Below are positions 2,543 to 47,952 of a stretch of 64,000 nt of DNA, piece by piece. The stretch is from contig OZ237746.1 of the NCBI GenBank assembly GCA_965178125.1, positions 744,001-808,000 of the forward strand. The letters are read 5' to 3'. The position numbers and the translations under genes were made by a program. This DNA comes from Bilabrum cf. latius (taxonomy: Eukaryota). The notes below the pieces were generated by a model. The model ran no database searches. It was not told the DNA's origin and saw only the letters and a program-made list of their open reading frames with translations. The stretch's first letter is position 1. Each line of letters starts with the position of its first letter.

Positions 2543-5500
2543 TCATGATACGGAGCATCCGCATCCGCATCCGCACCCAGGCCCCTATTCTGCTTCAGAG
2601 GTCCCAGTGTCACGCAATGACGCTTCATGCTCGCGTCGCTGTCGCTCCATCTCAGCTGCCCTGGCGTCTCGCAATGACGCTTCATGCTCGCGTCGCTGTC
2701 GCTCCATCTCAGCTGCCCTGGCATCTCGCAATGACGCTTCATGCTCGCGTCGCTGTCGCTCCATCTCAGCTGCCCTGGCGTCACACAACGACGCTTCATG
2801 CTCGCGTCGCTGTCGCTCTATCTCAGCTGCCCTGGCGTCACACAACGACGCTTCATGCTCGCGTCGCTGTCGCTCTATCTCAGCTGCCCTGGCGTCACAC
2901 AACGACGCTTCATGCTCGCGTCGCTGTCGCTCCATCTCAGCTGCCCTGGCGTCACACAACGACGCTTCATGCTCGCGTCGCTGTCGCTCCATCTCAGCTG
3001 CCCCGGCGTCACGCAATGACGCTACATGCTCGCGTCGCTGTCGCTCCATCTCAGCTGCCCTGGCGTCACGCAATACCGCTGCGTCAAGTTTTGTCTCCGA
3101 CTGCCTGGCAATCACCTCCTCCAGCACCTTCACGCACTCATCATGACCGCCCAATCGAGCCGCCTCCAATGGACCCACCATCGCCCCACCCTCCACCTCG
3201 CCCTTCATCTCCAGCCCACCCGCCAACCGACCCAGCCTCAGCCGCTTCCCCAGCTCCAACGGCCGACCCTCACTCGCAGCCCGGAACACCCTGCCTGCGT
3301 CCCTCTTGGCCTCCACCGCCCGGCGCCATCGAAGCACCTGACTCTTTCGATCAGCCTCCTCCAGCGCCAGCGCCTCCCCGCACAGACCAGCCAATCCAGG
3401 ATAGTCTATTTCCATTGCCCACCTCTGCACATCCCTGACTCGATCCAAGCATCTACCATCTCGTAGCGCATACCGTAACATAGGCTGCTCCTCCACCACA
3501 GGCACCCCATCCCGGTCCCTCTCCACCTCATCATACTCGGCCTTACACGCGTCTCCCATGCCCAGCACCAGAGACACCATCGCCATCGTGCCCGGGTCCC
3601 TCCCGCCCTCCCCCATGGGCCTGCCCATGGACCCCCGGATGGTGTCCATGCAGCTGGCCACGAATGCAGCCACTTGCGCCAGGTCCACGGCCCCGCCCTC
3701 AGCGGCTAGGTGCATGGCGGCCACGGCGCGGCCAGCGAGCACTCGGGGCTTGGGACTAGTGGTAGGTATAGATGCAGCAGTGCTTGGCCCAGGGTCGCTG
3801 GAATGTGCAATCTCTGTCTCTAGCTTTTGGTCCATCCACTTCCTGACGACCTTGTGCCGCTGCATGCCAAGCATTTTCTTGCCGTTTTTCGCGCGTCCAC
3901 CAACTGTCATTTCACTCATTGACCCGGACTGCATGGCTGCCTGCTGCATGCCCTCCAGGATAGCGTCACTCCATCTAGGCAAGACGAAGCCTACACTGAA
4001 TGCTTTGCATGTTGTGCTCGATGCAATTGCAGGCAAGAGATCTAATGCTACAGTTTCCGGAAGTCGTGAATAGGAGTCTAATGTCAGCCGACGCAAGGAA
4101 GCAGACTCGGAAAGCAGCCTCGCGAAGAATGGAGCAGATGCGGCAGACACGAGCTCATCCTACACTTTTATCTATTGCAGCGTGGGATGCCGTGCAGCAG
4201 CCTCAAATAGCACACAGCCTTCGTCATCTGTACTGTCACTAAGATCTACGTTTATTGCCAACTCCCGCAGAGTGGTGTTCCTAGCGATACCTACAGCCAG
4301 TGGCACGACACCCGCAGGCTGCAGGCCACATGATAGAATATCCAATCGGCGAAGAGCAATGCGTGGATTCTCGCCTAGTGCCTTCCCCAATGCAACGGGA
4401 GTCTATCCGCCGAGAGCTCGCCCTGTGCAACTCAGACCCAGCTCCTGCAGCGTGCTGTTCGACTGCAGCCCTACGGCGATTGCATGCCCACCCCCGCTCC
4501 CGAATTGTGCAACGCTGAGGTTCAGCATTTTTAGTGTGCTGTTGACTGCTAGCGCATTGCCCAAAGCCACAGCGCCATCATCTCTAATTCTGCTGCCTAT
4601 CAGCACGAGTTTCTCCAACATGCAGGAGGGCCGGGACAGCTGAGCTGCGATCTGTGTGGCCCCATCTGTCGGCACGTTGCAGCCTAGCAACAGTAGCTCT
4701 CTGAGGCCACTGCCAGCGGTGGGATTGCACTGCAGTAAGCTGTCAAATCCATCGCGAGAAATCTCGCAGTGTCGCAAGTGGAGCTTTCTGAGCGAGCATC
4801 CTCGAGGACAAGCAAGTGCCTCGCCGAGCAATGCTGCAAACTGCTCATTCAAGTAATCGGAATCCCCAATGTAGTCATCCGAGTTATCCGAGTCATCTGG
4901 AGTCCGTTGGGCCTGATACCAGGCCTAAACAAAGTCATTCAAGTCACCCGAGCCATCGGAATCATCCGAGCCATCCGAGCCATCCGAGCCATCCGAGCCA
5001 TCCGAGCCATCCGAGCCATCCGAGCCATCCGAGCCATCCGAGCCTACAGAGTCAGTGGCGCTATCCGAGTCATCCTAGACGCGCTTGCTCGCGTCGATGC
5101 GCAGACTCTCAAGCTTCAACCTCCCGCCCATTGCCCCTTCCCGAATGCCGCGAGCGAGAGGCACCATATCGGCAACGCTCTTATGGACCACGTCCAGCTT
5201 CAGCGTGCGGAGGGTCGAGTTGGTTGCAAGCGCATGCCCCCACGCTTCCATTGAAGCACCATGCATGGTCGCACCCTGGATGTTCAGCTCTTCCAATGCA
5301 TGGTTATACAATAATGCTCTAGATCCACTAACAGCATTGCTCGCGCCTTTCCAATTGCATAAGAATAGTCTGCGCAATGCCTTGTTCGCCTGTATGCTCG
5401 CGCACATGGACGCCGCAGACTTGGAATCGTGGCAGTCGATTCCCAGCTCCGTTAGACATGTATTGCTTGCGAGTAGCTGAATCAAAGAAGCACTCCTCTT

Positions 5501-6438: not shown

Positions 6439-9129
6439 TCAGCCAATCCCAATCACCTCCTCCAGCACCTTCACGCACTCTTCGTGGCCGCCCAGACGAG
6501 CCGCCTCCAATGGACCCACCATCGCCCCACCCTACACCTCGCCCTTCATCTCCAGCCCGCCCGCCAACCGACCCAGCCTCAGCCGCTTCCCCAGCTCCAA
6601 CGGCCGACCCTCACTCGCAGCCCGGAACACCCTGCCTGCGTCCCTCTTGGCCTCCACTGCCCTGCGCCATCGAAGCACATGCCTCCGTCGATCAGTCTCC
6701 TCCAGCGCAAGCGTCTCTCCGCACAGACCAGCCAATCCAGGATAGTCTATTTCCATTGCCCACCGCTGCACGTCCCTGACTCGATCTAAGCATCTACCAT
6801 CTCGTAGCGCATACCGTAACATCGGCAGCTCCTCCACCACAGGCACCCCATCCCGGTCCCTCTCCACCTCATCATACTCGGCCTGACACGCGTCTCCCAT
6901 GCCCAGCACCAGAGATACCATCGCCATCGTGCCGGGGTCCCTGCCGCCCTCCCCCACGCCCACGGGCCTGCCCATGGACCCCCGGATGGTGTCCATGCAG
7001 CTGGCCACGAATGCAGCCACTTGTGCCAGGTCCACGGCCCCACCCTCAGCGGCTAGGTGCATGGCGGCCACGGCGCGGCCAGCGAGCACTCGGGGCTTGG
7101 GACTAGTGGTAGGTATAGATGCGGCAGTGCTTGGCCCAGGGTCGCTGGAATGTGCAACATCTGTCTCTAGCTGCTGGTCCATCCACCTCCTGACGACCAT
7201 GTGCCGATGCAAGCCGAGCATGTCCTCGTGAATCTTTGTGCGTCCACCAACTGTCATTTCACTCATCGACCCGGACTGCACGGCTGCCTGGTACATGCCC
7301 TGCACAATGGATTTACTCCATCCGGACCCTACGAAGCCTACTTCGAATACTTTGCATGTTCTGCTCGATGCAATCGCAGGCAGTAGAGCCCGCGCGGCAG
7401 CTTCCGGGAGTCGTGAATTGAAAACCATCAGCCGACGCAAAGATGCAGACTCGGAAAGCAGCCTCGCGACAAAAGGAGCAGATGCGGCAGATACAAGAGC
7501 GTCCCGCACTTGCATCCACTGCAGCGTAGGATGCCGTGCAGCAGCCTCAAATAGCACACCAGCTTCATAATCAGTTTTCTCACTAAGCTCTACGCTTATT
7601 GATAACTCGCGCAGAGTTGTGTTCCCAGCGAGGCCGGCAGCCAGAGGCACAACACCCTCGGGCTGCAAACCACATGATGCAATATCCAATCGACGAAGAG
7701 CAATGCCTGGATTCTCGCCTAGTGCCCTCCCCAGTGCAACCGGTGTCTATCCGCCGAGAGCCCGCCCTGTCCAATTCAGATCCAGCTCCTGCAGCGTGCT
7801 GTTCGACTGCAGCCCGACTGCGATTGCATGCCCACCCTTGCTTCCAATGCTTCCCATCATCTCCTCCGGCAAGCAGAGATCTTTGAGGGTGCTATTGACT
7901 GCCAGCGCATCGCCCAGAGCCATAGCACCATCGTCTTCAATTTTGCAGTCTATCAGTACAAGTTTCTCCAACACGCACGCGGGCAGGGACAGCCGAGCTG
8001 CAATCAATTTGGCCCCATCCGAGTCCACGTTGCAGTCTGACAGGAATAGCTCCCTGAGACCACTACCAGCGGAGCTGTGCCCCCGCAGTAGGTTGTCAAA
8101 TCCATCGCGAGAAATCTCGCAGTGTCGCAAGTGGAGCTTTCTGAGCGAGCATCCTCGAGGACAAGCAAGTGCTTCGCCGAGCACCGTCACAAACTCATCT
8201 AATTGTTGCGTGCTCGCGCAAATGTGCAGACTCTCAAGTCGCAGCGCCCCCTTCATCGCTCCTTCCCGAATGCCACGAGCAAGAGGCACCATACCAGTCG
8301 TGCTGCCATACATAGAATCCAGCTTTAGCTTGCGGAGGGTCGAGTTGGTCGCAAGCGTCTGCCCCCATGCCTCCATTAAAGCACCATTCATTGTCAGCCC
8401 TTCGATGCTCAGCTCTTCCAACGTATGGTTATGCGGCAATACTCTGGCTAAACTCATCAGCGTGTTCTCGTCTGTTGCATCCCATAAGCTGAGCCGGCGC
8501 AATGCATTGTTCGCTTTCAGGCCTCTGCAGAAGGACTCCGCTGACTTGGACTCGTGGCAGTCGATGCTCAGCTCCGTAAGGCATGTGTTGCATGAGAGAG
8601 ACCGAATCAAAGAAACGCCCTTTATTGCTAGAGGTGGCGACCCCGGCACTAGCTTTGCCTTTAGCAATGAAAAGGATCCATCAGCAGCCTCGAGGCCTTG
8701 GCTTATCTCACTGTCACCGTACTCTCCGTCGAAAGACTGCACACCTGATCGCTACAGAATGGCAGCTGCTGTTTTGAAGCTATCATGATTCCCATCAGAC
8801 AATTCTTTGCAGTCCTTGAACACGAAACGGCGCAAAGGAGCTCTCGGTTTTGCAAGGCTGTCCGTAAGAACTGAATGACCGTCCTCCTGCAGCTTGCATC
8901 GTTGAACGTCGAGAGACTATATGGACTCATTTTTAAGCAACGCGCTACCAACACAAGCATACTGTCTCGGCCCCAAGCTTGATCTTTTGACTTCAAGAAT
9001 AGAGATGCTCTTAGACAGTCCAATCGCTTCCTAGAGCACATCGAGATCTCCTGAAAATGCATCAAAGTTGATGCACAAGCGCCTGCACTTCTGATTTATT
9101 TTGTCAATTATAAGAGACGAGTATTCCAT
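6439..9129 (-). CDS. RNI-like LRR protein, paralog C (~896 aa), ending just after the shared ankyrin-like module
   Basis: ATG 9129 (MEYSSLIIDKINQKCRRL) to TGA 6439, with in-frame TAG at 9031, 8917, 8752, 7747 and 6532. Highly similar to A and B. Confidence 0.85.
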
Positions 9130-16714: not shown

Positions 16715-16807
16715 GGTCAGAAGAAGGAAAATGGTTGCTGGTTTGGCGCTGATCTGATTTATTATGTATATAACGAGTACCTTACTGGCATGAAAACACT
16801 CAAAGTA

Positions 16808-17524: not shown

Positions 17525-17640
17525 CGTTCGCTGTCAAAATGTCCTGCGTGCGACCAATTGCGATGTCGCTCCGAGTAGGACCTAGCCGTTCGCTGTATTA
17601 TCACGAACAACGGTTCACCTTCATTACAGCTCTGGGGGGT

Positions 17641-22866: not shown

Positions 22867-23017
22867 TTTCTTTTGGTAGCAACTATTTTTTCCAAACATG
22901 TCGTTCTGCAATGCATGCTTTTGCTTTCTTCCAGCTCCGAATTTTGATGCACGATGCCATCGAACCGCCGGCAAGAGATCCCAAAACACGCGCAACCGGA
23001 TCATCCCGTTCTTCGCA

Positions 23018-26000: not shown

Positions 26001-26095
26001 GACTAGGACCATTGGCTCAGCCGACGTGCGGATTCGTCGCGACCAGGCCCAGAATTGAGCAATACCCGCAATCGTCCGCCTGTGGAATCGTCCAT
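23018..26095 (-). CDS. ACOX: Peroxisomal acyl-CoA oxidase (~1025 aa) with C-terminal PTS1 -AKL
   Basis: Motifs GCYAQTELAHGSNV, KWWVGALG, GDIGPKLG...DNGY, ALRYS...REQFG, CRRCCGGHGY, TAEGDNYVLAQQ and WASLAPLN. In-frame TAG at about 26003, 25925, 24725, 23621 and 23330. Ends AKL-TGA. Confidence 0.92.
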
Positions 26096-26216
26096 AATGG
26101 CACGAAATAGTCACTTCAGGGGCATGTGATGGCCCGACGATCCCAGGATCCGGAGCCTTGCCGACGTCCCATCATCCATCATCACGCAGCAAGGATCCCC
26201 GTTAAAAAGGCAAATC

Positions 26217-28750: not shown

Positions 28751-29762
28751 GCTTTAGACATATCATGCTGGCCGTTGGGAGTTGCCGCAACGTGGCAGGA
28801 GCACCTGACGGGCCGTCCTGAGTCACGGACCGTCCTTGCTGGCATAACTACACGCAACCGGCCCGGGTTGAATTCTGGGCCAAAGGCATGAGCGCGTGCA
28901 TGCTAGCCTCTCTGAAGGACCGTGAGACGCAGAGACGGTCATGGAGGAGGAAATGGTGGATCCCGGCAGGGGACCCTGATGTGGGACTGGACCGCGCTTT
29001 GTGCCGGGCACATGCTCCGCACCTGTATGCTTTCTCCCTGTGAAGGCATCAGGCTGAGGGCTTGTGGGGGACCACATTGATGGCGAATAAAGGGGACTCG
29101 GCGGTGTAGGCTGAGATTGGGGGGCTTCTGGCCTGAAAGGGTCGGGGGCCTTGTAGTCCTTGTTTGAGGACTCCTCTGGATTCAGGTGATCACTCGAACT
29201 CCTTCGGGGGCAACGGTACATCTGGGTGCTTGTGGAATCTTTACCCAACAATGTATTTCTGTATTTCTGTATTCTGGTTTGAAGCGTGCACGCTGGACAG
29301 GCTGGACTAGTCTAGTTCATTCTGCGCCTTTTCGCCTTAAGTCATGTGAGTTGTGGTTTATGCTTGGGACTGCAATAGATAGTGTCTCTGGAATCTCAAG
29401 CTAGCAATGGGTCATGATGCTCGAAGCCTCAGGCAGCTGCAGGGTGGGGAAGGGCATTGCCTGCACCCGGTGCCGTGCGATTCTTCTCGGCTGCCCCATC
29501 CACCTGCCCAAATGGGACTCATCCGGTTTGATCTTACTGATGCATAAACTCCATTAGTATTGATCAATCACGGATATTGGGCGACTGAGGCCATCCAGGC
29601 CCCGTCCGTCAAGCGGCATGATTTGATCTTTCACCCAAATGATGCGGCTCCTCTCTCGTCTGACCTGGGGGCCGGCGGCAGGGGCTGAATATGCCGGTAC
29701 ATTCAAAATCAGATGCATCGATGGATTGCTTTTTATTTTATTCCATCCGCCAACCATCGCAG

Positions 29763-32700
29763 GTCGGGCTAGTCGCTGCTCGAGGCATCAAAAGACGGGG
29801 ATGAGCCACGCGTGCGTTAGTTGATCGAGCAAGGCACAAGCGTACACTATAGAGACAGTGTGAGCTGAACTGTCACGTGACAGAATGAATAGATTGGGTG
29901 CGGGCCCATGGCCAACAAGTGCACTATTGGACCATAGTTGTAACCTCTGACTCAGGCTCACCCCCTCGTGTTCCAACCTCATTTCTCTATCGATCGCTGC
30001 CTGTGCCGGTGCAATCCTCCATCTTGTATGTGATTTCATACTCTCTCCCACAATGCATCGCAGGAAGGGTGGACTCCTCTCCGTTGGGCCTCCGAGAATG
30101 GCTATGAGGGCATCGTGAAGCTGCTCCTGGATGCCGGGGCCTATGCACGGGCAGTTGACGGAGTGAGTGTGTGCGATGAATTTGGTAGGCAGGTTTTGGT
30201 TGGGATGGATCTATCAGGCGGGATGGGAGAGGGCGAATAGGTCGATGGGCAGCATGGTCGGACAGACGGGGGCAGGGAGGATGCAAGGGGGCCGATAGTG
30301 GGCCTTGATGTGCTTTGCAAGCTTGGAGGTATGCTCGCTGTCCCATTTGTCTAGCTGGCTGCCACTGTTCCTGCCACGTCGAATGTAGTACCGGTCCCTA
30401 TTCTTGACTCAGCGCGGTATGCGCCCCTTTAATTTTCCATCCCGTGTGTGGCCAGCTATCTCTCTTGCACGATGCATCGCAGTTTGGGAAGACTCCTCTC
30501 CATTGGGCCTCCTAGAAAGGCCATGAGGGCATCGTGAAGCTGCTCCTGGATGCCGGGGCCTATGCACGGGCAGTTGACGGAGTGAGTGTGTGCGATGAAT
30601 TTGGTAGGCAGGTTTTGGTTGGGATGGATCTATCAGGTGGGATGGGAGCGGGCGAATAGGTCGATGGGCAGCATGGTCGGACAGACGGGGGCAGGGAGGA
30701 TGCAAGGGGGCCGATAGTTGGCCTTGATGTGCTTTGCAAGCTTGGAGGTATGCTCGCTGTCCCATTTGTCTAGCTGGCTGCCACTGTTCCTGCCACGTCG
30801 AATGTAGTACCGGTCCCTATTCTTGACTCAGCGCGGTATGCGCCCCTTTAATTTTCCATCCCGTGTGTGGCCAGCTATCTCTCTTGCACGATGCATCGCA
30901 GGAAGGGTGGACTCCGCTCCATGGGGCCTCCTAGAATGGCCATGAGGGCATCGTGAAGCTGCTCCTGGCTGCCGGGGCCTATGCACGGGCAGCAGACATA
31001 GTGAGTGTGTGCGATGAATTTGGTAGGCAGGTTTTGGTTGGGATGGATCTATCAGGTGGGATGGGAGCGGGCGAATAGGTCTCTCACTCCGAGCAAGCAT
31101 TACAAGATCGGCCGATGGGCAGCATGGTCGGACAGACGGGGGCAGGGAGGATGCAAGGGGGCCGATAGTGGGCCTTGATGTGCTTTGCAAGCTTGGAGGC
31201 ATGCTCGCTGTCCCATTTGTCTAGCTGGCTGCCACTGTTCCTGCCACGTCGAATGTAGTACCGGTCCCTATTCTTGACTCAGCGCGGTATGCGCCCCTTT
31301 AATTTTCCATCCCGTGTGTGGCCAGCTATCTCTCTTGCACGATGCATCGCAGTTTGGGAAGACTCCTCTCCGTTGGGCCTCCGCGAATGGCCATGAGGGC
31401 ATCGTGAAGCTGCTCCTGGCTGCCGGGGCCGATGCACGGGCAGTTGACGGAGTGAGTGTGTGCGATGAATTTGGTAGGCAGGTTTTGGTTGGGATGGATC
31501 TATCAGGCGGGATGGGAGAGGGCGAATAGGTCGATGGGCAGCATGGTCGGACAGACGGGGGCAGGGAGGATGCAAGGGGGCCGATAGTGGGCCTTGATGT
31601 GCTTTGCAAGCTTGGAGGTATGCTCGCCATCCTCTTCGTCTAGCTGGCTGCCACTGTTCCTGCCACGTCGAATGTAGTACCGGTCCCTATTCTTGACTCA
31701 GCGCGGTATGCGCCCCTTTAATTTTCCATCCCGTGTGTGGCCAGCTATCTCTCTTGCACGATGCATCGCAGTTTGGGAAGACTCCTCTCGATTGGGCCTC
31801 CGCGAATGGCCATGAGGGCATCGTGAAGCTGCTCCTGGATGCCGGGGCCTATGCACGGGCAGTTGACGGAGTGAGTGTGTGCGATGAATTTGGTAGGCAG
31901 GTTTTGGTTGGGATGGATCTATCAGGCGGCATGGGAGCGGGCGAATAGGTCGATGGGCAGCATGGTCGGACAGACGGGGGCACGGAGGATGCAAGGGGGC
32001 CGATAGTGGGCCTTGATGTGCTTTGCAAGCTTGGAGGTATGCTCGCTGTCCCATTTGTCTAGCTGGCTGCCACTGTTCCTGCCACGTCGAATGTAGTACC
32101 GGTCCCTATTCTTGACTCAGCGCGGTATGCGCCCCTTTAATTTTCCATCCCGTGTGTGGCCAGCTATCTCTCTTGCACGATGCATCGCAGTTTGGGAAGA
32201 CTCCTCTCCATTGGGCCTCCTAGAATGGCCATGAGGGCATCGTGAAGCTGCTCCTGGCTGCCGGGGCCGATGCACGGGCAGTTGACAGAGTGAGTGTATG
32301 GGATGAATTTGGTAGGTAGGTTAGCTCTGGACGCATCCATAAGGATCTGGCTTGGTTGCTACTTTGGTTTCAATTCATGTTGCCCGGCCTGGTGACCTCT
32401 TGCTTTGTTTTCTGTGTCGCCACCATGGCCCTTTTTGTTTTTCTTGCATGCGCCGGTCCTGGTTGACCTGCCGTTCTCCCCATCTAGCCACCCGCCTGTT
32501 GGCGATCTGCGCGCTGCTGGCCATGCAGCAAGCCGCCATTCACGTCTCCCTCGTGTCTAACACCTGGAGCCCCTTTCTTCCAGGTTTGTTCTCGCCATTT
32601 ACACTGCACTATTGTCGCCTGTGCCGGTGTCTCTCTCTTGTCCCTCTCCACCTTCTGTCCTCCTGAGCCCACCTCGTCTTCCGGCTCACATCTTCTCCCC

Positions 32701-35700
32701 GTCGCTTCAATCCTGATGTCCGATAACATGTAACAGGATTGGAAGGGTTATCGGCTGGATAGGTTGATGGCTTCAAAGGGCGAGATTTGGCAGAGTTTCG
32801 TAGCGCTTGCTCGGAGTTCAGTCACAAATGTGTAGACCCACCAGTTAATGGTGCTGAGATAGAGAACGACAGGGCATAATACCTAGGGTAGCCTGAGGCA
32901 CCAGCCTCGGAGTCACTTGGTCCACTGTGTCGCCTTCCGCGACCCTTGCCGACACGGCCGGTATGCATGTGTCCCTGCATCCCTCCCTCCATCTTGTATG
33001 TCAATTCCCCCCCTCACCGATGTTGCATTTTTGCGCAGGACAGCAGGACACCTGAGGATCTGGCCCTGCTCAACGGTCATATGGCAGTCGCCGACCTGCT
33101 ATGGGAGGCAGCTGGCAGGGGCAAGAGAGACATGCGGAAGGTGCTGTTTGGGACGTCCGTGGCCGGGAACGAGTCCCGGGTGCGTCGCTTAATCGGGCAA
33201 GGGGTAGATGTGAATTATATTAGCGGTGTGAGTATGATTGCAGCGTGGCGAGAAAGGCTAGCTTATGGGCCCATAGGTGGGGGAGAAAGAAGACTCCCAG
33301 GACGAGCTCTTTGGTTCCCGTGTCCAACATCTAGTATCGGTCCTTCGTCTCATCGTGCCCCTTCCTCACCATGCGTTTTCCTCTACCTGCCCCATTTAAT
33401 TCATTGCTGAATGTGCCCTTGAGCCGCTATAAAGAGTACCTGAACCCCTTTTTTCCTTGAACGATGCATCACAGGACAATTAGACTCCTCTCCATTTGGC
33501 CTCCAGGAATGGCCATGAAGGCATCGTGAAGCTGCTCCTGGATGCCGGGGCCGATGCACGAGCATTAGACAGTGTGAGTGTACGGAATGCATGTGATAGG
33601 CAGGTGGTGATTGAGCTGGATCCATCAGGCCGCGGGATGGGAGCGGGCGGATCTGTCGATGGGCAGCATGGTCGGACCGACTGGGGCAGGGAGAATGGAA
33701 GGGACCAGGAGTGCGGCTTGCGGTGCTTTGCAAGCTTGGAGGCATGCTCGCTGTCCCCTTTGTCTACCTGGCTGCAACCTTCCTGCCGCGTCCACTCTAG
33801 TTGATTCAGCGCGGCATGCGCCCCATTATCCTTCCATCCCTTATGTGACCCGCTGTATCCCTCGCACGATGCATCGCAGTTGAAGGAGACTCCTCTCCAT
33901 TGTGCCTCCAGGAATGGCCATGAGGGCATCGTGAAGCTGCTCCTGGATGCCGGGGCCGATGCACGGGCAGCAACCGATGTGAGTATATGTAATGGATTTG
34001 GTCGGCAGGTTGGATTGGGATCGGTCTATTAGGCGAGATGGGAGCGGTCGATTCTGGCGATAGTCAGCATGGTCAGACAGACGGGGGCAGGGTGGATGGA
34101 AGGGACCAGGAGTGCGCCTTGCGGTGCTTTGCAAGCTTGGAGGCATGCTAGCTGTGCTCGTCGTCTAGCTGGCTGCCACCGTTCCTGCCGCATCTACTCT
34201 AGTTGATTCAGCGCGGCATGCGCTCCATTATCCGTCCATCCCTTATGTGACCCGCCGTCTCCCTCGCACGATGCATCGCAGTACAAGAAGACTCCTCTCC
34301 ATTGTGCCTCCGCGAATGGCCATGAGGGCATCGTGAAGCTGCTCCTGGATGCCGGGGCCGATGCAAGGGCAGCAAACAGTGTGAGTGTATGCAATGGATT
34401 TGGTCGGCAGGTTGGATTGGGATCGGTCTATTAGGCGAGATGGGAGCGGGCGAATCTGGCGATAGTCAGCATGGTCAGACAGACGGGGGCAGGCAGGATG
34501 GAAGGGATCAGGAGTGCGCCTTGATGTGCTTTGCAAGCTTGGAGGCATGCTGGCCTCCCCCACTATTTAGCTGGCTATGATTGATCCCGCCGCGTCCAAT
34601 CTAGCACCGGTCCCTGTCTTTGTATTTATGGCGGCATGCGCGGCATGCGCCCTTGTATCCGTTTATCCGGGGATCTCGTTTGTCACACTGTATGTCCCCC
34701 CCACGATGTTTCACAGCGCAAAAAGACTCCTCTCCATTTGGCCTCCGAGAATGGCCATGAGGGCATCGTGAAGCTGCTCCTGGAAGCCGGGGCCGATGCA
34801 CGGGCAGCAAACGATGTGAGTGTATGTAATGGATTTGGTCGGCAGGTTGGATTGGGATCGGTCTATTAGGCGAGATGGGAGCGGTCGGATCTGTCGATGG
34901 GCAGCATGGTCGGACCGACTGGGGCAGGGAGAATGGAAGGGACCAATAGTTCGCCTTGATGTGCTTTGCAAGCTTGGAAGCATGCTAGCTGTGCTCGTTG
35001 TCTAGCAGGCTGCCACCGTTCCTGCCGCGTCTACTCTAGTTGATTCAGCGCGGCATGCGCCCCATTATCCGTCCATCCCTTATGTGACCCGCTGTCTCCC
35101 TCGCACGATGCATCGCAGTTGAAGGAGACTCCTCTCCATTGGGCCTCCTAGAAAGGCCATGAGGGCATCGTGAAGCTGCTCCTGGATGCCGGGGCCGATG
35201 CACGGGCAGCAACAGTGAGTGTATGCAATGGATTTGGTCAGCAGGTTGGATTGGGATCGGTCTATTAGGCGAGATGGGAGCGGGCGATTCTGGCGATAGT
35301 CAGCATGGTCAGACAGACGGGGGCAGGGTGGATGGAAGGGACCAGGAGTGCGGCTTGATGTGCTTTGCAAGCTTGGAGGCATGCTAGCTGTGCTCGTTGT
35401 CTACCTGGCTGCCCCCGTTCCTGCCGCATCTACTCTAGTTGATTCAGCGCGGCATGCGCTCCATTATGCGTCCATCCCTTATGTGACCCGCTGTCTCCCT
35501 CGCACGATGCATCGCAGTACAAGGAGACTCCTCTCCATTGTGCCTCCAGGAATGGCCATGAGAGCATCGTGAAGCTGCTCCTGGATGCCGGGGCCGATAC
35601 AAGGGCAGCAGCCAGTGTGAGTGTATGTAATGGATTTGGTCGGCAGGTTGGATTGGGATCGGTCTATTAGGCGAGATGGGAGCGGGCGAATCTGGCGATA

Positions 35701-38700
35701 GTCAGCATGGTCAGACAGACGGGGGCAGGGTGGATGGAAGGGACCAGGAGTGCGCCTTGCGGTGCTTTGCAAGCTTGGAGGCATGCTAGCTGTGCTCGTT
35801 GTCTAGCAGGCTGCCCCCGTTCCTGCCGCATCTACTCTAGTTGATTCAGCGCGGCATGCGCTCCATTATGCGTCCATCCCTTATGTGACCCGCTGTCTCC
35901 CTCGCACGATGCATCGCAGGACAATGAGACTCCTCTCCATTTTGCCTCCGCGAATGGCCATGAGGGCATCGTGAAGCTGCTCCTGGATGCCGGGGCCTAT
36001 GCACGGGCAGTTGACGGAGTGAGTGTGTGCGATGAATTTGGTAGGCAGGTTTTGGTTGGGATGGATCTATCAGGCGGGATGGGAGAGGGCGAATAGGTCG
36101 ATGGGCAGCATGGTCGGACAGACGGGGGCAGGGAGGATGCAAGGGGGCCGATAGTGGGCCTTGATGTGCTTTGCAAGCTTGGAGGTATGCTAGCTGTGCT
36201 CGTTGTCTAGCTGGCTGCCACCGTTCCTGCCGCATCTACTCTAGCACCGGGCTCTGTTCTTGCTTCAGCGCGTCATGCGCCCATGTATCCGTCCATCCCG
36301 TATGTGACCCTCTGTCTCCCTCTCGTACGATGCATCGCAGTACGGGATGATTCCTCTCGATTGGGCCATCGAAAATTGCCATGAGGGCATCGTGAAGCTG
36401 CTCCTGGATGCCGGGGCCGATGCAAGGGCAGCAACAGTGAGTGTATGCAATGGATTTGGTAGTCAGGTGGTGGTTGGGCTGGATCTAGCAGGCGGGATGG
36501 GAGCGGGTGGATCTGTCGATGGGCAGCATGGTCGGACAGACGGGGGCAGGGAGGATGGAAGGGACCAGCAGTGCGCCTTGAGGTCCTGTGCAAGCTTGGA
36601 GACATGCAAGCCTTTCCTTTGTCTCAATGGCTGCCACCGCTCCTGCCACATCCACTCTAGCACCGGGCCCTGTTGTTGACTCAGCGCGGCATGCGTCCCT
36701 TGATCCCCCCATCCCGCTGTCTCTCCCTCCCACGATGCATCGCAGTTCAATGGAACTCCTCTCCATTTTGCCTCCGCGAATGGCCATGAGGGCATCGTGA
36801 AGCTGCTCCTGGATGCCGGGGCCGATGTACGGGCAGCAACAGTGAGTGTATGCAATGGATTTGGTAGGCAGATGGTGGTTGGGGTGGATCTAGCAGGCGG
36901 GATGGGAGCGGGCGGGTAGGTCGATGGGCAGCATGGTCGGACAGACGGGGGCCGGGAGGATGGAAGGGACCAGGGGTGCGCCTTGAGGTCCTTTGCAAGC
37001 TTGGAGACATGCTAGCAGTCACCTTTGTCTAGACGACTGCCACCGTTCCTGCCGCATCCACTCTAGCACCGGGCTCTGTTCTTGCTTCAGCGCGGCATGC
37101 GCCCCTTGATCCGTCCATCCCGTATGTGACCCTCTGTCTCCCTCTCGTACGATGCATCGCAGTTCAATGGAACTCCTCTCCATTTGGCCTCCGAAAATGG
37201 CCATGAGGACGTCGTGAAGCTGCTGCTTGCTGCCGGGGCCGATGCACTGGCAGTAGACGAAGTGAGTACGTGTTAAGGATGCGCTAGGTAGGTTAGGTCT
37301 GGACGCATCCATCAGGAACTGGCTTGGATGCTACATGGCTTCCAATTCATGCTGCCCGCCCTAGTGACCTTGGGCTTTATTTTTTCTGTATCGCCACCAT
37401 GGCCTTTTTTGCTTTTCTTGCATGCGCCGGTCCTGGTCGACCTTCCATGCGCCTCATCTATCCTCCCGCCCGTTGGCCCTCTGCGTGCTGCTGGCCATGC
37501 AGCAAGCCGCCATTCGCGTCTCCCTCGTGTCTTCCACCTGGAGTCCCCTTTTTCCAGGTTTGTTCTCGCCATTAACACTGCACTATTGTCGCCTGTGCCG
37601 GTGTCTCTCTCTTGTCCCTCTCCACCTCCTGTCCTCCTGAGCCCACCTCGTCTTCCGTCTCACCTCTGCTCCCCGTCGCTTCAATTCTGATGTCCGAGTA
37701 CATGTAACAGGATTGGAAGGGTTATCAGCTGGATAGGTCGATTGCTTCCAAAGGCGAGGTTTGCCAGAGTTTTGTAGCGCTTGCTCGATGTTCAGTAACA
37801 AATGTGTAGACCCACCAGTCAATGGTGCTGAGAAAGATAGCGACAGGGCAAAATTCCTAGGGTAGGTGCCAGCCTCGGAGTCACTTGGTCCACTGTGTCG
37901 CCTTCCGCGACCCTTGCCGACACGGCCGGTATGCATGTGTCCCTGCATCCCTCCCTCCATCTTGTATGTCAATTCCCCCCCTCACCGATGTTGCATTTTT
38001 GCGCAGGACGGCAGGACATCTGAGGATCTGGCCCTGCTCAACGGTTATATGGCAGTCGCCGACCTGCTATGGAAGGCAGCTGGCAGGGGCAAGAGAGACA
38101 TGCCGAAGGTGCTGTTCGGGGCGTCCGTGGCCGGGAACGAGTCCCGGGTGCGTCGCTTAATCGGGCAAGGGGTAGATGTGAATTATCTTAGCGGTGTGAG
38201 TATGATTGCAGCGTGGCGAGAAAGGCTAGCTTATGGGTCCATGGGCGGGGGAGAAAAAAGACTCCCAGGACGAGCTCTTTGGTTCCCGTGTCCAACATCT
38301 AGTATCGGTCCTTCGTCTCATCGTGCCCCTTCCTCACCATGCGTTTTCCTCTACCTGCCCCATTTAATTCATTGCTGAATGTGCCCTTGAGCCGCTATAA
38401 AGAGTACCTGAACCCCTTTTTTCCTTGAACGATGCATCACAGGACAATTAGACTCCTCTCCATTTGGCCTCCAGAAATGGCCATGAAGGCATCGTGAAGC
38501 TGCTCCTGGATGCCGGGGCCGATGCACGAGCATTAGACAGTGTGAGTGTACGGAATGCATGTGATAGGCAGGTGGTGATTGAGCTGGATCCATCAGGCCG
38601 CGGGATGGGAGCGGGCGGATCTGTCGATGGGCAGCATGGTCGGACAGACGGGGGCAGGGAGGATGGAAGGGACCAGGAGTGCGCCTTGCGGTGCTTTGCA

Positions 38701-40343
38701 AGCTTGGAGGCATGCTCGCTGTCCCCTTTGTCTCAATGGCTGCCACCGTTCCTGCCGCGTCCACTTCTAGCACCGGGCCCTGTTGTTGACTCAGCGCGGC
38801 ATGCGCCCCTTTATCCGTCCATCCCTTATGTGACCCGCCGTCTCCCTCGCACGATGCATCGCAGTACAAGGAGACTCCTCTCCATTGTGCCTCCAGGAAT
38901 GGCCATGAGAGCATCGTGAAGCTGCTGCGAGAGGCTGCGACTGCATGGCCACTGCCTTTCAGAAGCTATCGTCTAAGGATGGCGGCAGTGCGGTGGAGGC
39001 AGGGGGGGCGGGCGAAGAGGGACGCCGGGTATATATTCATGTGCTCGAGGGATGGCAGGCCTCTTGAGCTAGAGAGGAGACTACGACTGGGGGCCAAGGC
39101 TGGTGCGCTGGAGAGGAAGGGGGCTGTGGATGGGCCCATTCGGGACCTGCTGCTTGAACTGCTCGAGGGGCGGGCGTAGGGGCTTGACGCGGCGAGCGGG
39201 GAAGGGGTCAAGCTGGAGTGCGGGCCCGTGGCAGCGGCTTTGATCGGGGGTCATGACGAGTGCGTGGGGGTGCTGGTGGAGGGGATGCAGCGGGAGTGTA
39301 AGGGCAGCGAAGAGAGTCTGCTGGAAGTGCTGGAGAGGCAGGCAGTCACGATGAGGAGGAGCGGTGGCGGTGGTGGAGATGGGGCGTCAGCGGCTGCTGG
39401 GGAGGGGGAGAGTGAGAGTGAGAGTGAGAGGGTGGAGGTGTTGTCCCTGTGGGAGCTGCTTCGGCTGGTGATGAAGAGGCGCGTAGCAGCGGGGGAGGAG
39501 ACGGTGGCAGGAGGCTTGGTGGCGCTGCAAGAATGTTTCTAGGAAGTGATGCCGCTTGCGGTAGAAAAACTTGCGGTAGCTGCTTCAGAAGCAGCCGCGG
39601 TGTGCGTGTGTACCCCCATGCAGGAGTTACTGGCATGCAAGGCGACAGGGGGCGCCGAGGGGCAATCGATCGAGGCAGAGGGACGAGTGGATGCATCGTG
39701 GGATGGTTCGTCTGCCGTTGATCAGCTGAGGGAGGTCATGGTCGGCAGTCGGCAGCTGGTCATGAAGGGGCTTCGAGATGCTGTTGGTGCTTGTATGCCA
39801 ATTAAACAGATGATAGGCCCGTCCATGGAGGGGCTGTCGGTGGGCATGCTGGCCTTGCCGAATGACGAGTGCGAGGGGAGGCACAGGGAGGCGATGGAGT
39901 GCGTGAGGGGGGTGCTGACGGGGGTGCTGGGGGGAGGGGAGAGGGGGGGGTGGGGATGGGGCGAGGTGGAGGGGGCTATGGCACAGCTGCTTACCGGGGC
40001 TGCGTAGGAAGGGAAAGAGGGGAAGGAAGTACGGGATGGTGAAATCGCTGATGCAGTGGTTGGGGTCATACCGGAGGCGAAGGCACCGTCATTCTCGGCA
40101 GGTGTTGTTCGTCAATGGCGAGAGGGGGGGTTGTCTGAGCGCTGTCTGGGCATCGTCCGGCTTGATGGCGCTGGGACAGGTGGCTGGACAGCAGGTTTGC
40201 AAGGGGCATCGGCAGGGAGTGCGTGGGATGATTGGGGACTGTCGGCAGAGAGCGTACCCGCCTCTGCTCCACCGGGGACAGGTGGGGGCGGTTGGGGCGA
40301 TAGTGGTGGGGCCAGTGGGGGCGATGGAGACCGATGGTGGTGA
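29763..40343 (+). CDS. Multi-exon ankyrin-repeat protein (~1200 aa, at least 21 exons; first exon and start codon unresolved)
   Basis: Exons at 29763-29859; 99-nt exons at 30064, 30483, 30902, 31353, 31772, 32191; 33039-33227; 99/96-nt exons at 33475, 33880, 34282, 34717, 35119, 35518, 35920, 36341, 36746, 37163; 38007-38195; 38443-38541; terminal exon 38865-40343. All have CAG acceptors and GTGAG donors. Repeat consensus xxxTPLHxASxNGHEGIVKLLLDAGAxARA. Confidence 0.9.
30050..38920 (+). repeat. Tandem array of ~400-420 bp exon+intron units
   Basis: Near-identical introns (about 300-350 bp) alternate with single ankyrin exons. The 32.2-33.8 kb block is duplicated at an offset of 4968 bp. Confidence 0.95.
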
Positions 40344-40693
40344 GCTGGAGCACCCTTGTCCCTTGGCATGCGGCGGTTGCTGATCCCTCAGGCCTTTCTA
40401 GTGGAGCGTTTTGGCATATTGACCTATGGGACGTTGTGGATCTTGGTGGCATCGGCGGCGCAGGACCCGCTGCCTGGTGGGTGGGTGCAAGGCGGAACTG
40501 CTTGTCAGCCCGTGTACGTCTGCCAGTCAGATGGACTCTCGTAGAGATTTGATTGCTGCTTTGCGTGTTCAAATTTGATGATCTTGCTGTTTGCGAGAGA
40601 GCGAACCTCCCAGTTTACTACAGCGAACCTCGGCCGAACCCTCAACGGACACAAAATTTAGAATTTATCCATAGCTGCGGCAACGATCGCATC

Positions 40694-46600: not shown

Positions 46601-47725
46601 ACTGCCCTGACCCAGGCGCTCGAGGCCCGCGGTTTGGCCAGGCACCAGGTGAGGCAGCTCCCCGAGTACATGGTGGGCAAAGAGGCGGACGAGGTGCACA
46701 TCTACAGCGGGATGCGGAAAGGGTGGACAAACCAGCAGAGGAGGGAGTTGATGGGCCGGCTTGCGGCTGACAGGACCGGCCAGTACTCATACTCGAAGGA
46801 GTTCGGTAGCGCAACGGTCGTCCTGGTGGACGAGGAGGAGGAGAAGCAAAGGGCCAGGGAACAAGACATCGGGCGGCGCACCACCCAGCGAGGCTTCCAG
46901 TACCCCGCCCCCACCCGCCCCCAAGACCGGAACAAGCACCCCAAGGGTCTCTCGTAGTCGAGGGCAGCCGACCTCAGGCAGCCGTGGGTGGATCCCAACG
47001 ACGTGGCGGCTGTGGAGGCGGCGCGAGCGAGACAGCAGGCGCTTGCCTCGGGCCGCGGTCCCTGGGCCCAGCCGTCCTCCATCGGTGGATCGGACGCCGT
47101 GGGGCGGGGGGGCGGCGGGGGGGGTCCCCACCTGAGGGGTACCTTCGGGTTCGTTGACCCCACAACGGGGGAGCGTCGCGACGGGGAATTCTTCACCTCG
47201 GTGCACGTGGGTGGTCAAAGGGACGCCGAGGAACACAAGGCTGCCGTGGCCAGGGAACAGGCGGCCAAGGACGCACTCGTCATCACGGACAGGCGATTCC
47301 GACCGCACGTCCCCAGCCAGCGGCCGGCCCAGTCCGACAAGGCCACTGGGCTCCTGGCGGGGCCTCCTCGCTCCCTTGCTCTGAAACAGGTGCACAGGGC
47401 TAGGCTGCCCTCGGGCAAGGAAACGTCCTCCCTTCGGCTGGGCGCGACGTCTGCGCTGGCTGCCGATCCGTACGCCGACCCGACTGACTTCACGGCGAAG
47501 CTCAGGCCGGTCAAGACAGACACGGGCGGCCGCCCCGAGTTCAGCGCGATCGGCCGGGGGGACGGGCCTAAAGCTGGTGCCGGGGGGGCGGCGGCGGCGG
47601 TGTCGAGGAGGTCGCACGTCGCCGTGGATGCCGGGGGCAGCGGGCGGGGGGGTTACAGGGCGATCTGGGAGCCCAGGGCTGCCCCCCGTGTGGGGGCGGC
47701 GGGGGCGCGGGCCCTGCAGGGGTGA
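40694..47725 (+). CDS. CFAP92: CFAP92/KIAA1257-like cilia- and flagella-associated protein (~2343 aa, many low-complexity inserts)
   Basis: One frame broken only by TAG (43190, 44483, 44489, 46382, 46955). Ordered motifs LNPLVV.I..A..LP, VEVKVHDR, ITGVQLVD...VLVLEG, FEERLY, LFP, VHIYS, YSYSKEF and TQRGFQYP resemble CFAP92 from recall; not database-checked. Confidence 0.65.
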
Positions 47726-47952
47726 GATGGAAGTTCCAACGAACTTGGAACACGGAAATCCATGGATGGATCTGTGGATGATGCGATTTGCAGAAAGTTG
47801 TGCAATCTTTCAAATCAAAACTAGATCTATCACAACTAGTAAGTACAAGCGAAGGCGAATCAAGCCGAAATGAAATACTCCCAGGCAGACCCACGCCAAC
47901 CGTGGGTTTGCCTGACCCCCAATAGAGACTGCTGCTCCGATCCATGATCCGA

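What the first reader, a model, noticed from the sequence alone, without database searches (positions are those of the whole stretch)
29763..38930. One-repeat-per-exon ankyrin array with variation focused on the binding face: a candidate natural 'DARPin library' receptor
Seen: 17 exons of 99 or 96 nt, each exactly one ankyrin repeat, all phase 0, separated by near-identical introns. The scaffold (GHEGIVKLLLDAGA) is almost invariant. Residues 1-3 (EGW, FGK, DNQ, LKE, YKK, RKK, YKE, DNE, YGM, FNG), 7-8 (RW, HW, HG, DW, HL, HC, HF), 11-12 (EN, QK, QN, AN, RN) and the last 2-3 residues vary, even between units with almost identical introns. Established: these beta-turn and helix-1 positions form the ankyrin ligand surface randomised in DARPins, and repeat-per-exon shuffling is described for brown-algal LRR/TPR immune candidates. 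Inference: a recognition protein diversified by positive selection, unequal crossover and possibly exon skipping.
Basis: partly seen in the sequence, partly recalled or inferred. Interest (0 to 1): 0.85.

Follow-up and report, generated by a model that had tools for sequence, protein, structure and literature searches.

The report
One-repeat-per-exon ankyrin binder gene
This is a spliced, expressed gene made of 17 near-identical ankyrin-repeat exons whose ligand-contact residues change about five times faster than the introns between them, in an organism that reads TAG as an amino acid; it looks like a fast-evolving binding protein from an undescribed gene family, and its target is unknown.

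Summary
There are 17 units of 99 nt (14) or 96 nt (3), each bounded cag|...|gtgagt, and each is one ankyrin repeat.

TAG is a sense codon here, most likely Gln.

Contigs of three runs carry GT..AG joints at the predicted borders, so the array is spliced.

The full model has a start codon split by an intron and three capped ankyrin domains with 6, 10 and about 1.6 internal repeats. These are followed by an ankyrin-like module and a tail. It spans 1209 codons with TGA only at the end.

Six positions randomised in a published synthetic ankyrin library rank 1-5 and 8 of 33 for variability. They change 3.5 steps per nt against 0.70 in introns. Scaffold synonymous sites are more conserved than introns.

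The module recurs in two neighbouring LRR genes and in 102 metagenome loci. In 31 of the 80 loci kept, ankyrin exons have the same 99-nt register and the same variable positions.

Diversifying selection and unequal crossover are supported. Exon skipping and an immune "receptor" role are not shown. The closest analogues are fungal NLR ankyrin repeats and brown-algal repeat-per-exon genes.

The parts
29323..29345 (+). 3' end of an upstream exon. Its last two bases, AT, begin the start codon, and an in-frame TAA lies two codons upstream. The 5' limit of the exon is unknown.
   Evidence: GT..AG joint 29345>29763 in a contig of run X5, side 23. Sequence read.
29763..29859 (+). N-terminal cap exon of 97 nt. 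The first base G completes ATG. It holds two in-frame TAG.
   Evidence: Joints 29345>29763 and 29859>30064, both at depth 114.5 in X5. Translation. No Pfam hit. It resembles the N-cap half of the 189-nt exons.
30064..30162 (+). E01, ankyrin repeat exon, 99 nt (EGW.. type)
   Evidence: Borders. Pfam Ank 30.2 bits. Joint 29859>30064.
30483..30581 (+). E02, 99 nt, TAG at codon 11
   Evidence: Pfam Ank 37.6 bits.
30902..31000 (+). E03, 99 nt, TAG at codon 11
   Evidence: Joint 31000>31353 in X6.
31353..31451 (+). E04, 99 nt
   Evidence: Joint 31000>31353.
31772..31870 (+). E05, 99 nt
32191..32289 (+). E06, 99 nt, TAG at codon 11. Last repeat of ankyrin domain 1.
   Evidence: Joint 32289>33039 in X5, X6 and X8.
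33039..33227 (+). 189-nt exon: C-terminal cap of domain 1, a basic linker, and the N-terminal cap of domain 2
   Evidence: Joint 32289>33039. Translation and weak Ank_4 hit of 18.6 bits, below the cut-off.
33475..33573 (+). E07, 99 nt, TAG at codon 3
   Evidence: Pfam Ank 40.4 bits. Joint 33573>33880 in X6.
33880..33978 (+). E08, 99 nt
   Evidence: Pfam Ank 38.2 bits. Joints 33573>33880 and 33978>34282.
34282..34380 (+). E09, 99 nt
   Evidence: Joint 33978>34282 in X5 and X6.
34717..34815 (+). E10, 99 nt
   Evidence: Pfam Ank 38.4 bits. Joint 34815>35119 in X5.
35119..35214 (+). E11, 96 nt, TAG at codon 11
   Evidence: Joints 34815>35119 and 35214>35518.
35518..35616 (+). E12, 99 nt
   Evidence: Joint 35214>35518 in X6.
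35920..36018 (+). E13, 99 nt. A mosaic unit: its upstream intron is of type B and its 3' half and downstream intron are of type A.
36341..36436 (+). E14, 96 nt
   Evidence: Pfam Ank 26.1 bits.
36746..36841 (+). E15, 96 nt
37163..37261 (+). E16, 99 nt. Last repeat of ankyrin domain 2.
   Evidence: Pfam Ank 39.9 bits. Joint 37261>38007 in X5, X6 and X8, side 99.
38007..38195 (+). Second 189-nt exon (C-cap, linker, N-cap). A paralogue of 33039-33227.
   Evidence: Joints 37261>38007 and 38195>38443. Duplication shown.
38443..38541 (+). E17, 99 nt, TAG at codon 3. Its peptide is identical to that of E07.
   Evidence: X8 contig record 28 joins 38122-38195 to 38443-38517, so the TAG codon lies in a spliced contig.
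38865..40343 (+). Terminal exon. It holds a truncated 18th repeat (38865-38927), the ankyrin-like module, and a tail of about 350 residues with no known family. It carries three in-frame TAG and ends in TGA at 40341-40343.
   Evidence: Frame. One X5 contig of 1047 nt at depth 101 covers 38865-39911 without a gap. Pfam finds only the 20-residue Ank piece.
38988..39296 (+). Conserved ankyrin-like module inside the terminal exon, at residues 42-144 of P0003
   Evidence: 45-46% identity to the C-termini of both LRR genes, E = 7e-17 and 4e-13. 56 library proteins match. The profile hits an ankyrin N-cap plus repeat in PDB at E = 4e-14. The model has pLDDT 90.6. Best VIA match Z = 9.0, to a DARPin fusion.
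3080..3352 (-). The same module at the C-terminal side of the RNI-type LRR gene at 2546-6109(-)
6442..6690 (-). The same module at the C-terminus of the paralogous LRR gene at 6442-9291(-)

Best explanation
This is a transcribed and spliced gene of about 1209 codons in a eukaryote that reads TAG as a sense codon, most likely Gln.

It encodes three capped ankyrin solenoids, which resemble natural N6C, N10C and short N1-2 designs. Each internal repeat sits on its own 99- or 96-nt phase-0 exon. The solenoids are followed by a conserved ankyrin-like module and an uncharacterised tail.

The array grew recently by duplication of exon-plus-intron units of about 400-420 bp, and of a larger block, through unequal crossover or gene conversion. 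Breakpoints fall in the invariant scaffold.

The scaffold is kept uniform even at synonymous sites. The beta-turn and helix-1 residues that contact ligands in ankyrin proteins are driven apart.

The product is therefore most likely an intracellular binding protein with many different repeat surfaces, evolving under diversifying selection. It belongs to a lineage-specific family in which ankyrin or LRR arrays precede the same module.

Shown: the anatomy, the splicing, the excess change at binding codons, and the existence of the family. Inferred: translation, binding, and selection for new specificities. My split within this reading is non-self or partner recognition about 0.25, a secreted or injected effector about 0.15, and another binding role the rest.
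For: Anatomy.

TAG is a sense codon:
- Frames of 715-2390 codons free of TGA and TAA hold 3-14 TAG each.
- A TAG lies inside an aligned glutathione-synthase block.
- 2 of 9 TAG columns are TAG in both LRR paralogues.
- The spliced ORF has 11 TAG, 0 TAA and 1 terminal TGA in 1209 codons, against 34 and 42 TGA in the other frames.
- In relatives, 50 TAG stand in module match columns. One such column is Q in 85 of 86 other members, and Q is enriched 5.7-fold in the columns where TAG stands.

Splicing: ten unambiguous GT..AG joints lie at predicted borders in contigs of X5, X6 and X8, and none in X1. In X5, exon contigs have depth 100-160 and intron contigs 4-6.

Diversification:
- The six a-priori binding positions rank 1-5 and 8 of 33.
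- They show 0.72-0.89 changes per nt against 0.13-0.24 in introns.
- On the intron tree they take 3.5 steps per nt, against 0.70 in introns and 0.49 in the other codons.
- In the 20 unit pairs whose introns differ by less than 5% (mean 0.022), variable codons have pN 0.252.
- Variation starts and stops exactly at the exon borders.

Homogenised scaffold: diversity at 4-fold sites is 0.029, against 0.147 in introns.

Recombination.

Family.
Against: - No ligand, no signalling or effector domain, and no protein-level data are available.
- All rate comparisons are between paralogous repeats of one gene copy. Gene conversion of the introns, or import of short patches from unseen paralogues, could inflate the exon-to-intron contrast.
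- pS at the post-hoc variable codons is also raised, at 0.092 against 0.020.
- In the metagenome relatives the introns are not alike beyond shuffled controls. There the variable positions may reflect only weak constraint over a long time.
- The kinds of the runs are guesses. X5 is marked 'probably DNA', so the joined forms there could be cDNA-like DNA. That would still prove splicing at these borders.
- The copy number of the nearly identical units E01-E06 is not independently verified.
- The spliced protein could not be folded here.
Confidence: 0.65

Rival explanations
1. Concerted evolution with relaxed constraint only. The scaffold and introns are homogenised by gene conversion, while a few structurally tolerant surface positions drift neutrally or are patched in from other paralogues. 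No selection for new specificities is needed.
For: Scaffold synonymous sites are 5 times less diverse than introns, 0.029 against 0.147, which shows that homogenisation acts. The mosaic unit E13 shows exchange between units. pS at the variable codons is also raised. In the relatives the same positions vary but no neutral benchmark exists.
Against: Within each intron subfamily the binding codons carry 4-7 times more changes per nt than the adjacent introns. The excess begins at the first exon base, after 14 nearly invariant intron bases. The EGW and FGK types differ at 5 of 9 nt although their flanking introns are 0-4% apart. No donor copies lie in the window. Neutral drift cannot exceed the intron rate unless conversion tracts systematically spare about 30 nt of each exon.
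Confidence: 0.2
2. The protein is not a sensor of the organism's own defence. It is an effector, or a general adaptor, that binds host or cellular proteins, as ankyrin proteins of intracellular parasites and symbionts do.
For: Ankyrin proteins are enriched in host-associated microbes (PMC4986451 discussion passage). The stretch is held by runs filed under three other organism labels. There is no NOD or other signalling domain.
Against: The translated start has no signal peptide-like feature. Nothing is known about the organism's way of life. The same module follows RNI-type LRR arrays, a typical sensor architecture.
Confidence: 0.15
3. It is a pseudogene array. TAG is a stop, the exons are decaying copies, and the transcript is non-coding.
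For: 11 in-frame TAG, the first at codon 4.
Against: No TGA, TAA or frameshift occurs in 1208 codons, and 17 of 17 units keep both splice sites. TAG-only interruptions are window-wide in conserved genes and are present in relatives. TAG-bearing exons lie in spliced contigs.
Confidence: 0.03
4. It is an assembly artefact: a few real units were multiplied or mis-joined by the assembler.
For: No listed contig spans the whole stretch, and units E01-E06 are 96-100% alike.
Against: 16 of the 17 exon peptides are distinct. Unit-specific exon junctions E03>E04, E07>E08, E08>E09, E10>E11 and E11>E12 appear in run contigs. DNA-like contigs of X1 match pieces of the array with 0 differences.
Confidence: 0.03

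Closest known systems
Highly internally conserved ankyrin repeats of fungal NOD-like receptors (e.g. Podospora Pa_3_8560; PMC4986451: abstract and passages read)
   Same: Near-identical 33-residue repeats. [quoted passage not shown] Concerted evolution and recombination between repeats are inferred. The best PDB sequence matches of the module profile include a fungal 'Pfs, NACHT and Ankyrin domain protein'.
   Different: No NACHT or NB-ARC domain and no N-terminal effector domain; the protein starts with an ankyrin cap. Every repeat is on its own exon with an intron of about 300 nt. There are three capped domains in one chain. A different, conserved ankyrin-like module follows. Mean repeat identity is 74%, or 85% without the six positions, so it is borderline for that paper's 85% criterion.
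Ectocarpus ROCO-LRR and NB-ARC-TPR candidate receptors with one repeat per exon (PMC3341825, passages read; PMC11378527, listing and abstract only)
   Same: Each repeat is one phase-0 exon of constant length. Exon duplication and shuffling are the source of variation. Positive selection acts on the binding face.
   Different: The repeat type is ankyrin (99 nt), not LRR (72 nt) or TPR. There is no ROC-COR or NB-ARC domain. No inactivated or antisense repeat exons lie in the introns. The organism is different and uses TAG as a sense codon.
Synthetic ankyrin libraries (DARPins; ANK-N5C, PMC4308713, passages and section 12 read)
   Same: A fixed consensus scaffold with N- and C-caps. Variation is limited to canonical positions 2, 3, 5, 10, 13 and 33, plus 14 in DARPins (that last point is recalled). 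These are the most variable positions here.
   Different: This one is natural and multi-domain. Its positions 4, 9 and 1 also vary somewhat. No binding has been shown.
Nuclear codes with UAG read as Gln and UAA kept as a stop (NCBI table 15; cases in PMC5304391, abstract and passages)
   Same: TAG stands in frame in conserved columns that are Gln in other members. TAA is almost only at protein ends in the relatives.
   Different: The lineage is not identified. The nearest named acyl-CoA oxidases are fungal. The one fungus-related case found in print, Amoeboaphelidium, changes both UAA and UAG. No tRNA was found in the window.

Membership tests
Ankyrin repeat (Pfam PF00023) | 33-residue repeat that matches the Ank profile above its gathering score | tested here: met
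   8 of 8 exons tested (of the 17) score 26.1-40.4 bits against the cut-off of 21.1, with profile positions 1-32 aligned to exon positions 1-32. 397 PDB sequences match at E <= 0.001, led by DARPins and ankyrins.
Fungal NLR with highly conserved ankyrin repeats | Central NACHT or NB-ARC nucleotide-binding domain | tested here: not met
   No such Pfam family occurs in any exon or in the 492-residue terminal exon. The ORF starts at a split ATG directly with an ankyrin cap. The stretch of about 600 nt upstream abuts the glutathione synthase gene.
Fungal NLR with highly conserved ankyrin repeats | Repeats of high internal conservation (85% over at least 100 residues in PMC4986451) | tested here: inconclusive
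   Mean pairwise identity is 74% (range 56-100%), or 85% when the six binding positions are left out.
Fungal NLR with highly conserved ankyrin repeats | Hypervariable sites on the concave binding face, evolving faster than neutral | tested here: met
   The mapping rests on alignment to DARPin and ANK-N5C chains and on the positions given in PMC4308713. No 3-D model of this protein was made.
Fungal NLR with highly conserved ankyrin repeats | Repeat-number polymorphism between strains | not testable with these tools
   Only contigs of a few coded runs were available, and none spans the array.
Brown-algal repeat-per-exon receptor candidates | One repeat per phase-0 exon of constant length | tested here: met
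   17 of 17 units qualify. In relatives, 55 of 70 ankyrin-like units are exactly ag|99 nt|gt.
Brown-algal repeat-per-exon receptor candidates | ROC-COR GTPase or NB-ARC signalling domain | tested here: not met
   No Pfam match.
Brown-algal repeat-per-exon receptor candidates | Inactivated or antisense repeat exons within the introns | tested here: not met
   A tblastn search of an exon peptide against the window gives 25 HSPs. These are the 18 units, one cap exon, two unrelated diverged repeats at 17177-17404(-), and four weak hits at E > 0.1. None lies inside the array's introns.
TAG = Gln nuclear code (table 15-like) | TAG in frame in conserved genes and aligned with Gln | tested here: met
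   for the window. for the relatives: a column that is Q in 85 of 86 other members holds TAG 5 times, and Q is enriched 5.7-fold. In the window alone the residue is not settled: only 1 of 7 informative paralogue columns is CAG.
TAG = Gln nuclear code (table 15-like) | TAA retained as a stop | tested here: inconclusive
   In the relatives there are 0 TAA in frame in the 54 exons, against 5 and 29 in the other frames. There are 8 TAA in 8041 match-column residues, 7 of them in the last columns. In the window there are 0 TAA in all but one of the long TGA-free frames, but the DNA is 60-68% G+C.
TAG = Gln nuclear code (table 15-like) | A tRNA with anticodon CUA | not testable with these tools
   0 tRNA genes in the window, and no genome is held.

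The most novel reading that the evidence does not exclude
The gene is one member of a large, undescribed recognition repertoire in a eukaryotic lineage that reads TAG as Gln. In this repertoire, interchangeable sensor arrays (one-repeat ankyrin exons, or RNI-type LRRs) are coupled to a conserved ankyrin-like adaptor module. Because every array exon is symmetrical in phase, unequal crossover in the germ line, and possibly alternative exon use, would generate many binding variants. That would be an innate recognition system without a NOD domain, evolved independently of NLRs and VLRs.
Probability: 0.15. Interest if true: 0.85.

Novelty: new variant of a known kind. Interest (0 to 1): 0.7.

Why it matters
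Highly conserved repeat arrays with hypervariable contact residues are a hallmark of fast-evolving recognition proteins: fungal NLRs, brown-algal ROCO and TPR genes, and lamprey VLRs. This is an ankyrin version that differs in four ways.

- Each repeat is an exon.
- It has no NOD domain.
- It sits beside LRR genes that share its conserved module.
- It has more than 100 relatives in metagenomes with the same exon register and the same variable positions.

It gives a testable entry into recognition biology in a poorly known lineage that also uses a rare genetic code. The introns are still alignable, so the window's array offers an unusually clean internal neutral standard for measuring diversifying selection. 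It is also a natural counterpart of synthetic ankyrin binder libraries.

My searches of the held library found no description of it. The search 'aphelid, ankyrin, genome' returned 3 unrelated papers. The search 'ankyrin repeat / exon shuffling / repeat per exon / diversifying selection / tandem duplication' returned nothing on ankyrin exon arrays.

Tried and rejected
- No RNA holder is listed for the stretch. The kinds of X5, X6 and X8 are guesses.
- Exon skipping: joints 30162>31772, 33573>35518, 35214>38865 and 36436>37163 all have short sides of 20-30 nt. They lie between exon ends that are identical in several units (E07 = E17; E12 start = E18 start; E15 start = E16 start for 23 nt; E01, E02, E04 and E05 ends). 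They give no evidence either way.
- Depth bins without cover, such as X1 at 30905-31666, carry no meaning.
- No genome is held.
I did not send any part of it.
- The search for homologous proteins found nothing for the 189-nt cap exon among longer proteins, and nothing for the terminal exon at near lengths. A single 33-residue exon was below the size limit.
- The 22-nt exon core has 0 exact matches in metagenome contigs and in viral contigs.
- Rfam found 0 matches at E <= 0.1 in 28800-40600. There are 0 tRNAs in the window.
- Foldseek of the module model against PDB gave 0 matches at E <= 0.001; the best was 0.19, an ankyrin protein.
- The model of the database protein P0041 (ankyrin plus module) was poor: pLDDT 66.4, with the ankyrin part below 50. 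It cannot show whether the module stacks on the repeats.
- Cluster look-up gave a name for 1 of 5 proteins, an insect ankyrin protein that is only a generic match.
- A guessed palindrome did not explain the recurrent G-V-T-S peptide.
- The PDB alignments of two enzymes did not settle the residue that TAG encodes.
- The scripts stopped on an error after printing the results quoted here.

Full report
OBSERVATION

Tandem Repeats Finder reports an array at 30041-37267 with period 419 and 17.3 copies, and a sub-array with period 402. Anchoring on the conserved core gives 18 matches. 17 of the 18 are complete units bounded by cag| and |gtgagt; 14 are 99 nt and 3 are 96 nt. 8 of 8 tested exons match Pfam Ank above its cut-off.

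Four points were missing or imprecise:
- The introns fall into at least three subfamilies. They differ by 0-5% within a subfamily and by 14-20% between subfamilies.
- Each of the two long gaps holds an extra 189-nt exon.
- An 18th, truncated repeat opens a long terminal exon.

GENETIC CODE

With TGA and TAA as the only stops, the window holds frames of 715-2390 codons that contain 3-14 TAG each. Frames bounded by TAG instead are full of TGA. These frames include squalene epoxidase, acyl-CoA oxidase, glutathione synthase and two RNI-type LRR proteins.

- One TAG lies inside an aligned glutathione-synthase block.
- The acyl-CoA oxidase frame ends in A-K-L before TGA.
- Between the two LRR paralogues, 2 of 9 TAG columns are TAG in both.
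- In relatives fetched later, 50 TAG stand in match columns of a conserved module. One of those columns is Q in 85 of 86 other members, and Q is enriched 5.7-fold where TAG stands.
- TAA is nearly confined to the last columns of the module. It is absent in frame from 54 exons, although it is common out of frame.

TAG is therefore a sense codon, most likely Gln, with TGA and probably TAA as stops. For the window itself the residue is inferred from the relatives.

GENE MODEL AND EXPRESSION

Contigs of coded runs X5, X6 and X8 carry GT..AG joints exactly at predicted borders: 29345>29763, 29859>30064, 31000>31353, 32289>33039, 33573>33880, 33978>34282, 34815>35119, 35214>35518, 37261>38007 and 38195>38443. 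Run X1 covers introns and shows none of these joints.

In X5, exon contigs have depth 100-160 and intron contigs 4-6. The run kinds are guesses, and X5 is marked 'probably DNA'. Either way these borders are used by the spliceosome.

The start codon is split AT|G by the first intron, with an in-frame TAA two codons upstream. From it the ORF runs through:
- an N-cap exon;
- six repeat exons;
- a 189-nt exon encoding a C-cap, a linker and an N-cap;
- ten repeat exons;
- a second 189-nt exon;
- one repeat exon;
- a terminal exon, which one 1047-nt contig covers without a gap.

The first TGA is at 40341-40343. The ORF is 1209 codons with 11 TAG and 0 TAA. The other two frames of the same exons hold 34 and 42 TGA. 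TAG-bearing exons, namely the N-cap exon, E17 and the terminal exon, lie in spliced or continuous contigs.

EVOLUTION OF THE ARRAY

I fixed the binding set beforehand from a published synthetic library, which randomised or optimised canonical positions 2, 3, 5, 10, 13 and 33 (PMC4308713). An exon position p equals canonical position p+2. This follows from the alignment of exon positions 3-31 to residues 105-133 of chain 4qfv. The set is therefore exon positions 33, 1, 3, 8, 11 and 31.

- The six positions rank 1-5 and 8 of 33 by entropy, p = 7e-5.
- Within three intron subfamilies they carry 0.72-0.89 minimum changes per nt, against 0.13-0.24 in the introns, p = 1e-11, 4e-5 and 5e-8. The other 27 codons carry 0.11-0.19.
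- On a tree built from the introns of 15 units they take 3.5 steps per nt, against 0.70 for introns and 0.49 for the other codons.
- In the 20 unit pairs whose introns differ by less than 5% (mean 0.022), the post-hoc variable codons have pN 0.252.
- The excess starts at the first exon base, after 14 almost invariant intron bases, and stops at GTGAGT.

The scaffold shows the opposite pattern. Its 4-fold sites have diversity 0.029, against 0.147 for introns.

Unit E13 is a mosaic of two intron types. A block of about 2 kb is duplicated at 91% identity, rising to 97-99% in its core.

The pattern is concerted evolution of a scaffold combined with diversification of the ligand face. It is generated by unequal crossover or gene conversion with breakpoints in the invariant part.

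Three caveats apply. The comparisons are between paralogous repeats of one gene copy. Conversion could shrink the apparent intron distance. Patches imported from unseen paralogues would mimic fast substitution.

THE TAIL AND THE FAMILY

The last repeat breaks off after helix 2 begins and is followed by a module of about 100 residues. That module is 45-46% identical to the C-terminal parts of the two LRR genes about 30 kb upstream.

- HMMER over 1.84 billion representative proteins finds 56 proteins, nearly all short, that match only this module.
- 52 of 55 of these have no Pfam family, and 3 have ankyrin repeats in front of the module.
- A profile of the module hits an ankyrin N-cap plus first repeat in PDB at E = 4e-14.
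- The module folds confidently, with pLDDT 90.6.
- Its best structural matches are ankyrin proteins, Z = 9.0 to 7, which is middling. Foldseek finds nothing significant.
- The remaining 350 or so residues have no relatives.

RELATIVES ELSEWHERE

Scanning metagenome contigs with the module profile confirmed 102 loci, of which 80 were kept.

- In these loci the module match often runs past a TAG.
- 31 of the 80 loci hold ankyrin exons.
- 55 of 70 ankyrin-like units are exactly ag|99 nt|gt in the same register as here, with 16 TAG and no TGA or TAA in frame.
- 31 of 38 modules in these loci have such exons upstream on the same strand. Some contigs hold two genes in tandem.
- Across 54 distinct units the six a-priori positions are the six most variable of 33, p = 9e-5. 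A subfamily of 26 units from 18 loci differs at 88% of those positions, at 25% of the other positions, and at 17% of scaffold 4-fold sites.
- Their introns are no longer alignable. Those arrays are old, and the window's array is a recent expansion.
- One relative has RNI-type LRRs before the module.

WHAT IT IS

The best reading is an intracellular, multi-domain ankyrin binder under diversifying selection. It belongs to a lineage-specific family in which a repeat array is followed by an ankyrin-like module.

A role in recognition of non-self or of variable partners is plausible, because LRR siblings share the module and the genes cluster. It is not shown, because there is no NOD, TIR, kinase or death-type domain.

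An effector role is a live rival. Neutral drift with conversion is the main evolutionary rival. A pseudogene and an assembly artefact are effectively excluded.

COMPARISON WITH WHAT IS KNOWN

The closest matches are these:
- Fungal NLR ankyrin repeats of high internal conservation, with positively selected concave-face sites (PMC4986451).
- Ectocarpus genes with one LRR or TPR per exon (PMC3341825).

This gene works like both but fails their membership tests on the signalling domain. One repeat per exon in animal ankyrin genes is something I recall but did not check.

The nearest named acyl-CoA oxidases are from a chytrid and from Mortierellomycota, at 41-50% identity over about 30% of the query. 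That is only a weak pointer to fungal relatives. The fungus-related alga parasite Amoeboaphelidium is reported to read both UAA and UAG as Gln (PMC5304391 passage). That would differ from the TAG-only pattern seen here.

LIMITS

- No spliced protein could be folded.
- No strain comparison, no long cDNA and no protein data were available.
- The supplementary files of the cited papers were not seen. They may hold exon-structure tables that bear on novelty.

Noticed in passing
whole window; e.g. 17425-22863(+), 40553-47722(+), 50581-56766(-), 57795-63998(-): TAG is used as a sense codon throughout. Frames of 1800-2400 codons hold 5-14 TAG and no TGA or TAA. In relatives TAG aligns with Gln, and TAA behaves as a stop. 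This is a TAG-only reassignment, which is rare outside ciliates. The nearest named enzyme relatives are fungal.
   Followed up: partly
11199-27725 and 44511-63115, both strands: The 12-mer GTGTGACGAGTG occurs 42 times (allowing up to 1 mismatch) against 0.31 expected. It lies in both orientations without flanking similarity, inside long ORFs, where it reads G-V-T-S, T-R-H-T or C-D-E-W. Three tandem pairs are spaced 15 or 18 nt apart. Several copies lie in stretches that are insertions relative to PDB homologues. None lies in the ankyrin locus or the LRR genes. It is unexplained.
   Followed up: partly
2546-6109(-) and 6442-9291(-): Two paralogous RNI-type LRR genes are 75% identical, with overall dN/dS of 0.45. 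They end in the same ankyrin-like module as the ankyrin gene; dN/dS over the aligned stretch that holds the module (residues 931-1030) is 0.11. pS drops from 0.3-0.5 to 0.11 in the last 300 residues, which suggests conversion. The first gene carries a run of RAAEMERQRREHEASL repeats after the module.
   Followed up: partly
L001-L080 (metagenome contigs): 102 confirmed loci in contigs of four name prefixes encode the module, often in tandem genes. In some, 150-450 further residues follow the module. This is a large, unnamed gene family with no Pfam model.
   Followed up: partly
29000-29380, 32429-32809, 37382-37762: Summed contig depth in run X1 is very high here, at 7686, 1058 and 9939, against about 100-250 elsewhere. 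These stretches, which lie in the two long introns and upstream of the gene, are therefore probably high-copy repeats.
   Followed up: no
1-10000 and 28000-40000: The LRR and ankyrin genes lie in stretches of 53-61% G+C with GC3 of 0.59-0.67. The housekeeping genes between and beside them are 60-68% G+C with GC3 of 0.75-0.82.
   Followed up: no
17177-17404(-): Two diverged ankyrin repeats of another gene lie on the minus strand, unrelated to the array.
   Followed up: no
24725-25924(-): The acyl-CoA oxidase frame holds an in-frame stretch of about 154 residues that is absent from the Arabidopsis enzyme. It is either an insertion or an intron whose length is a multiple of three. The frame ends in A-K-L before TGA, which looks like a peroxisomal targeting signal (that the motif is a signal is recalled).
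   Followed up: no
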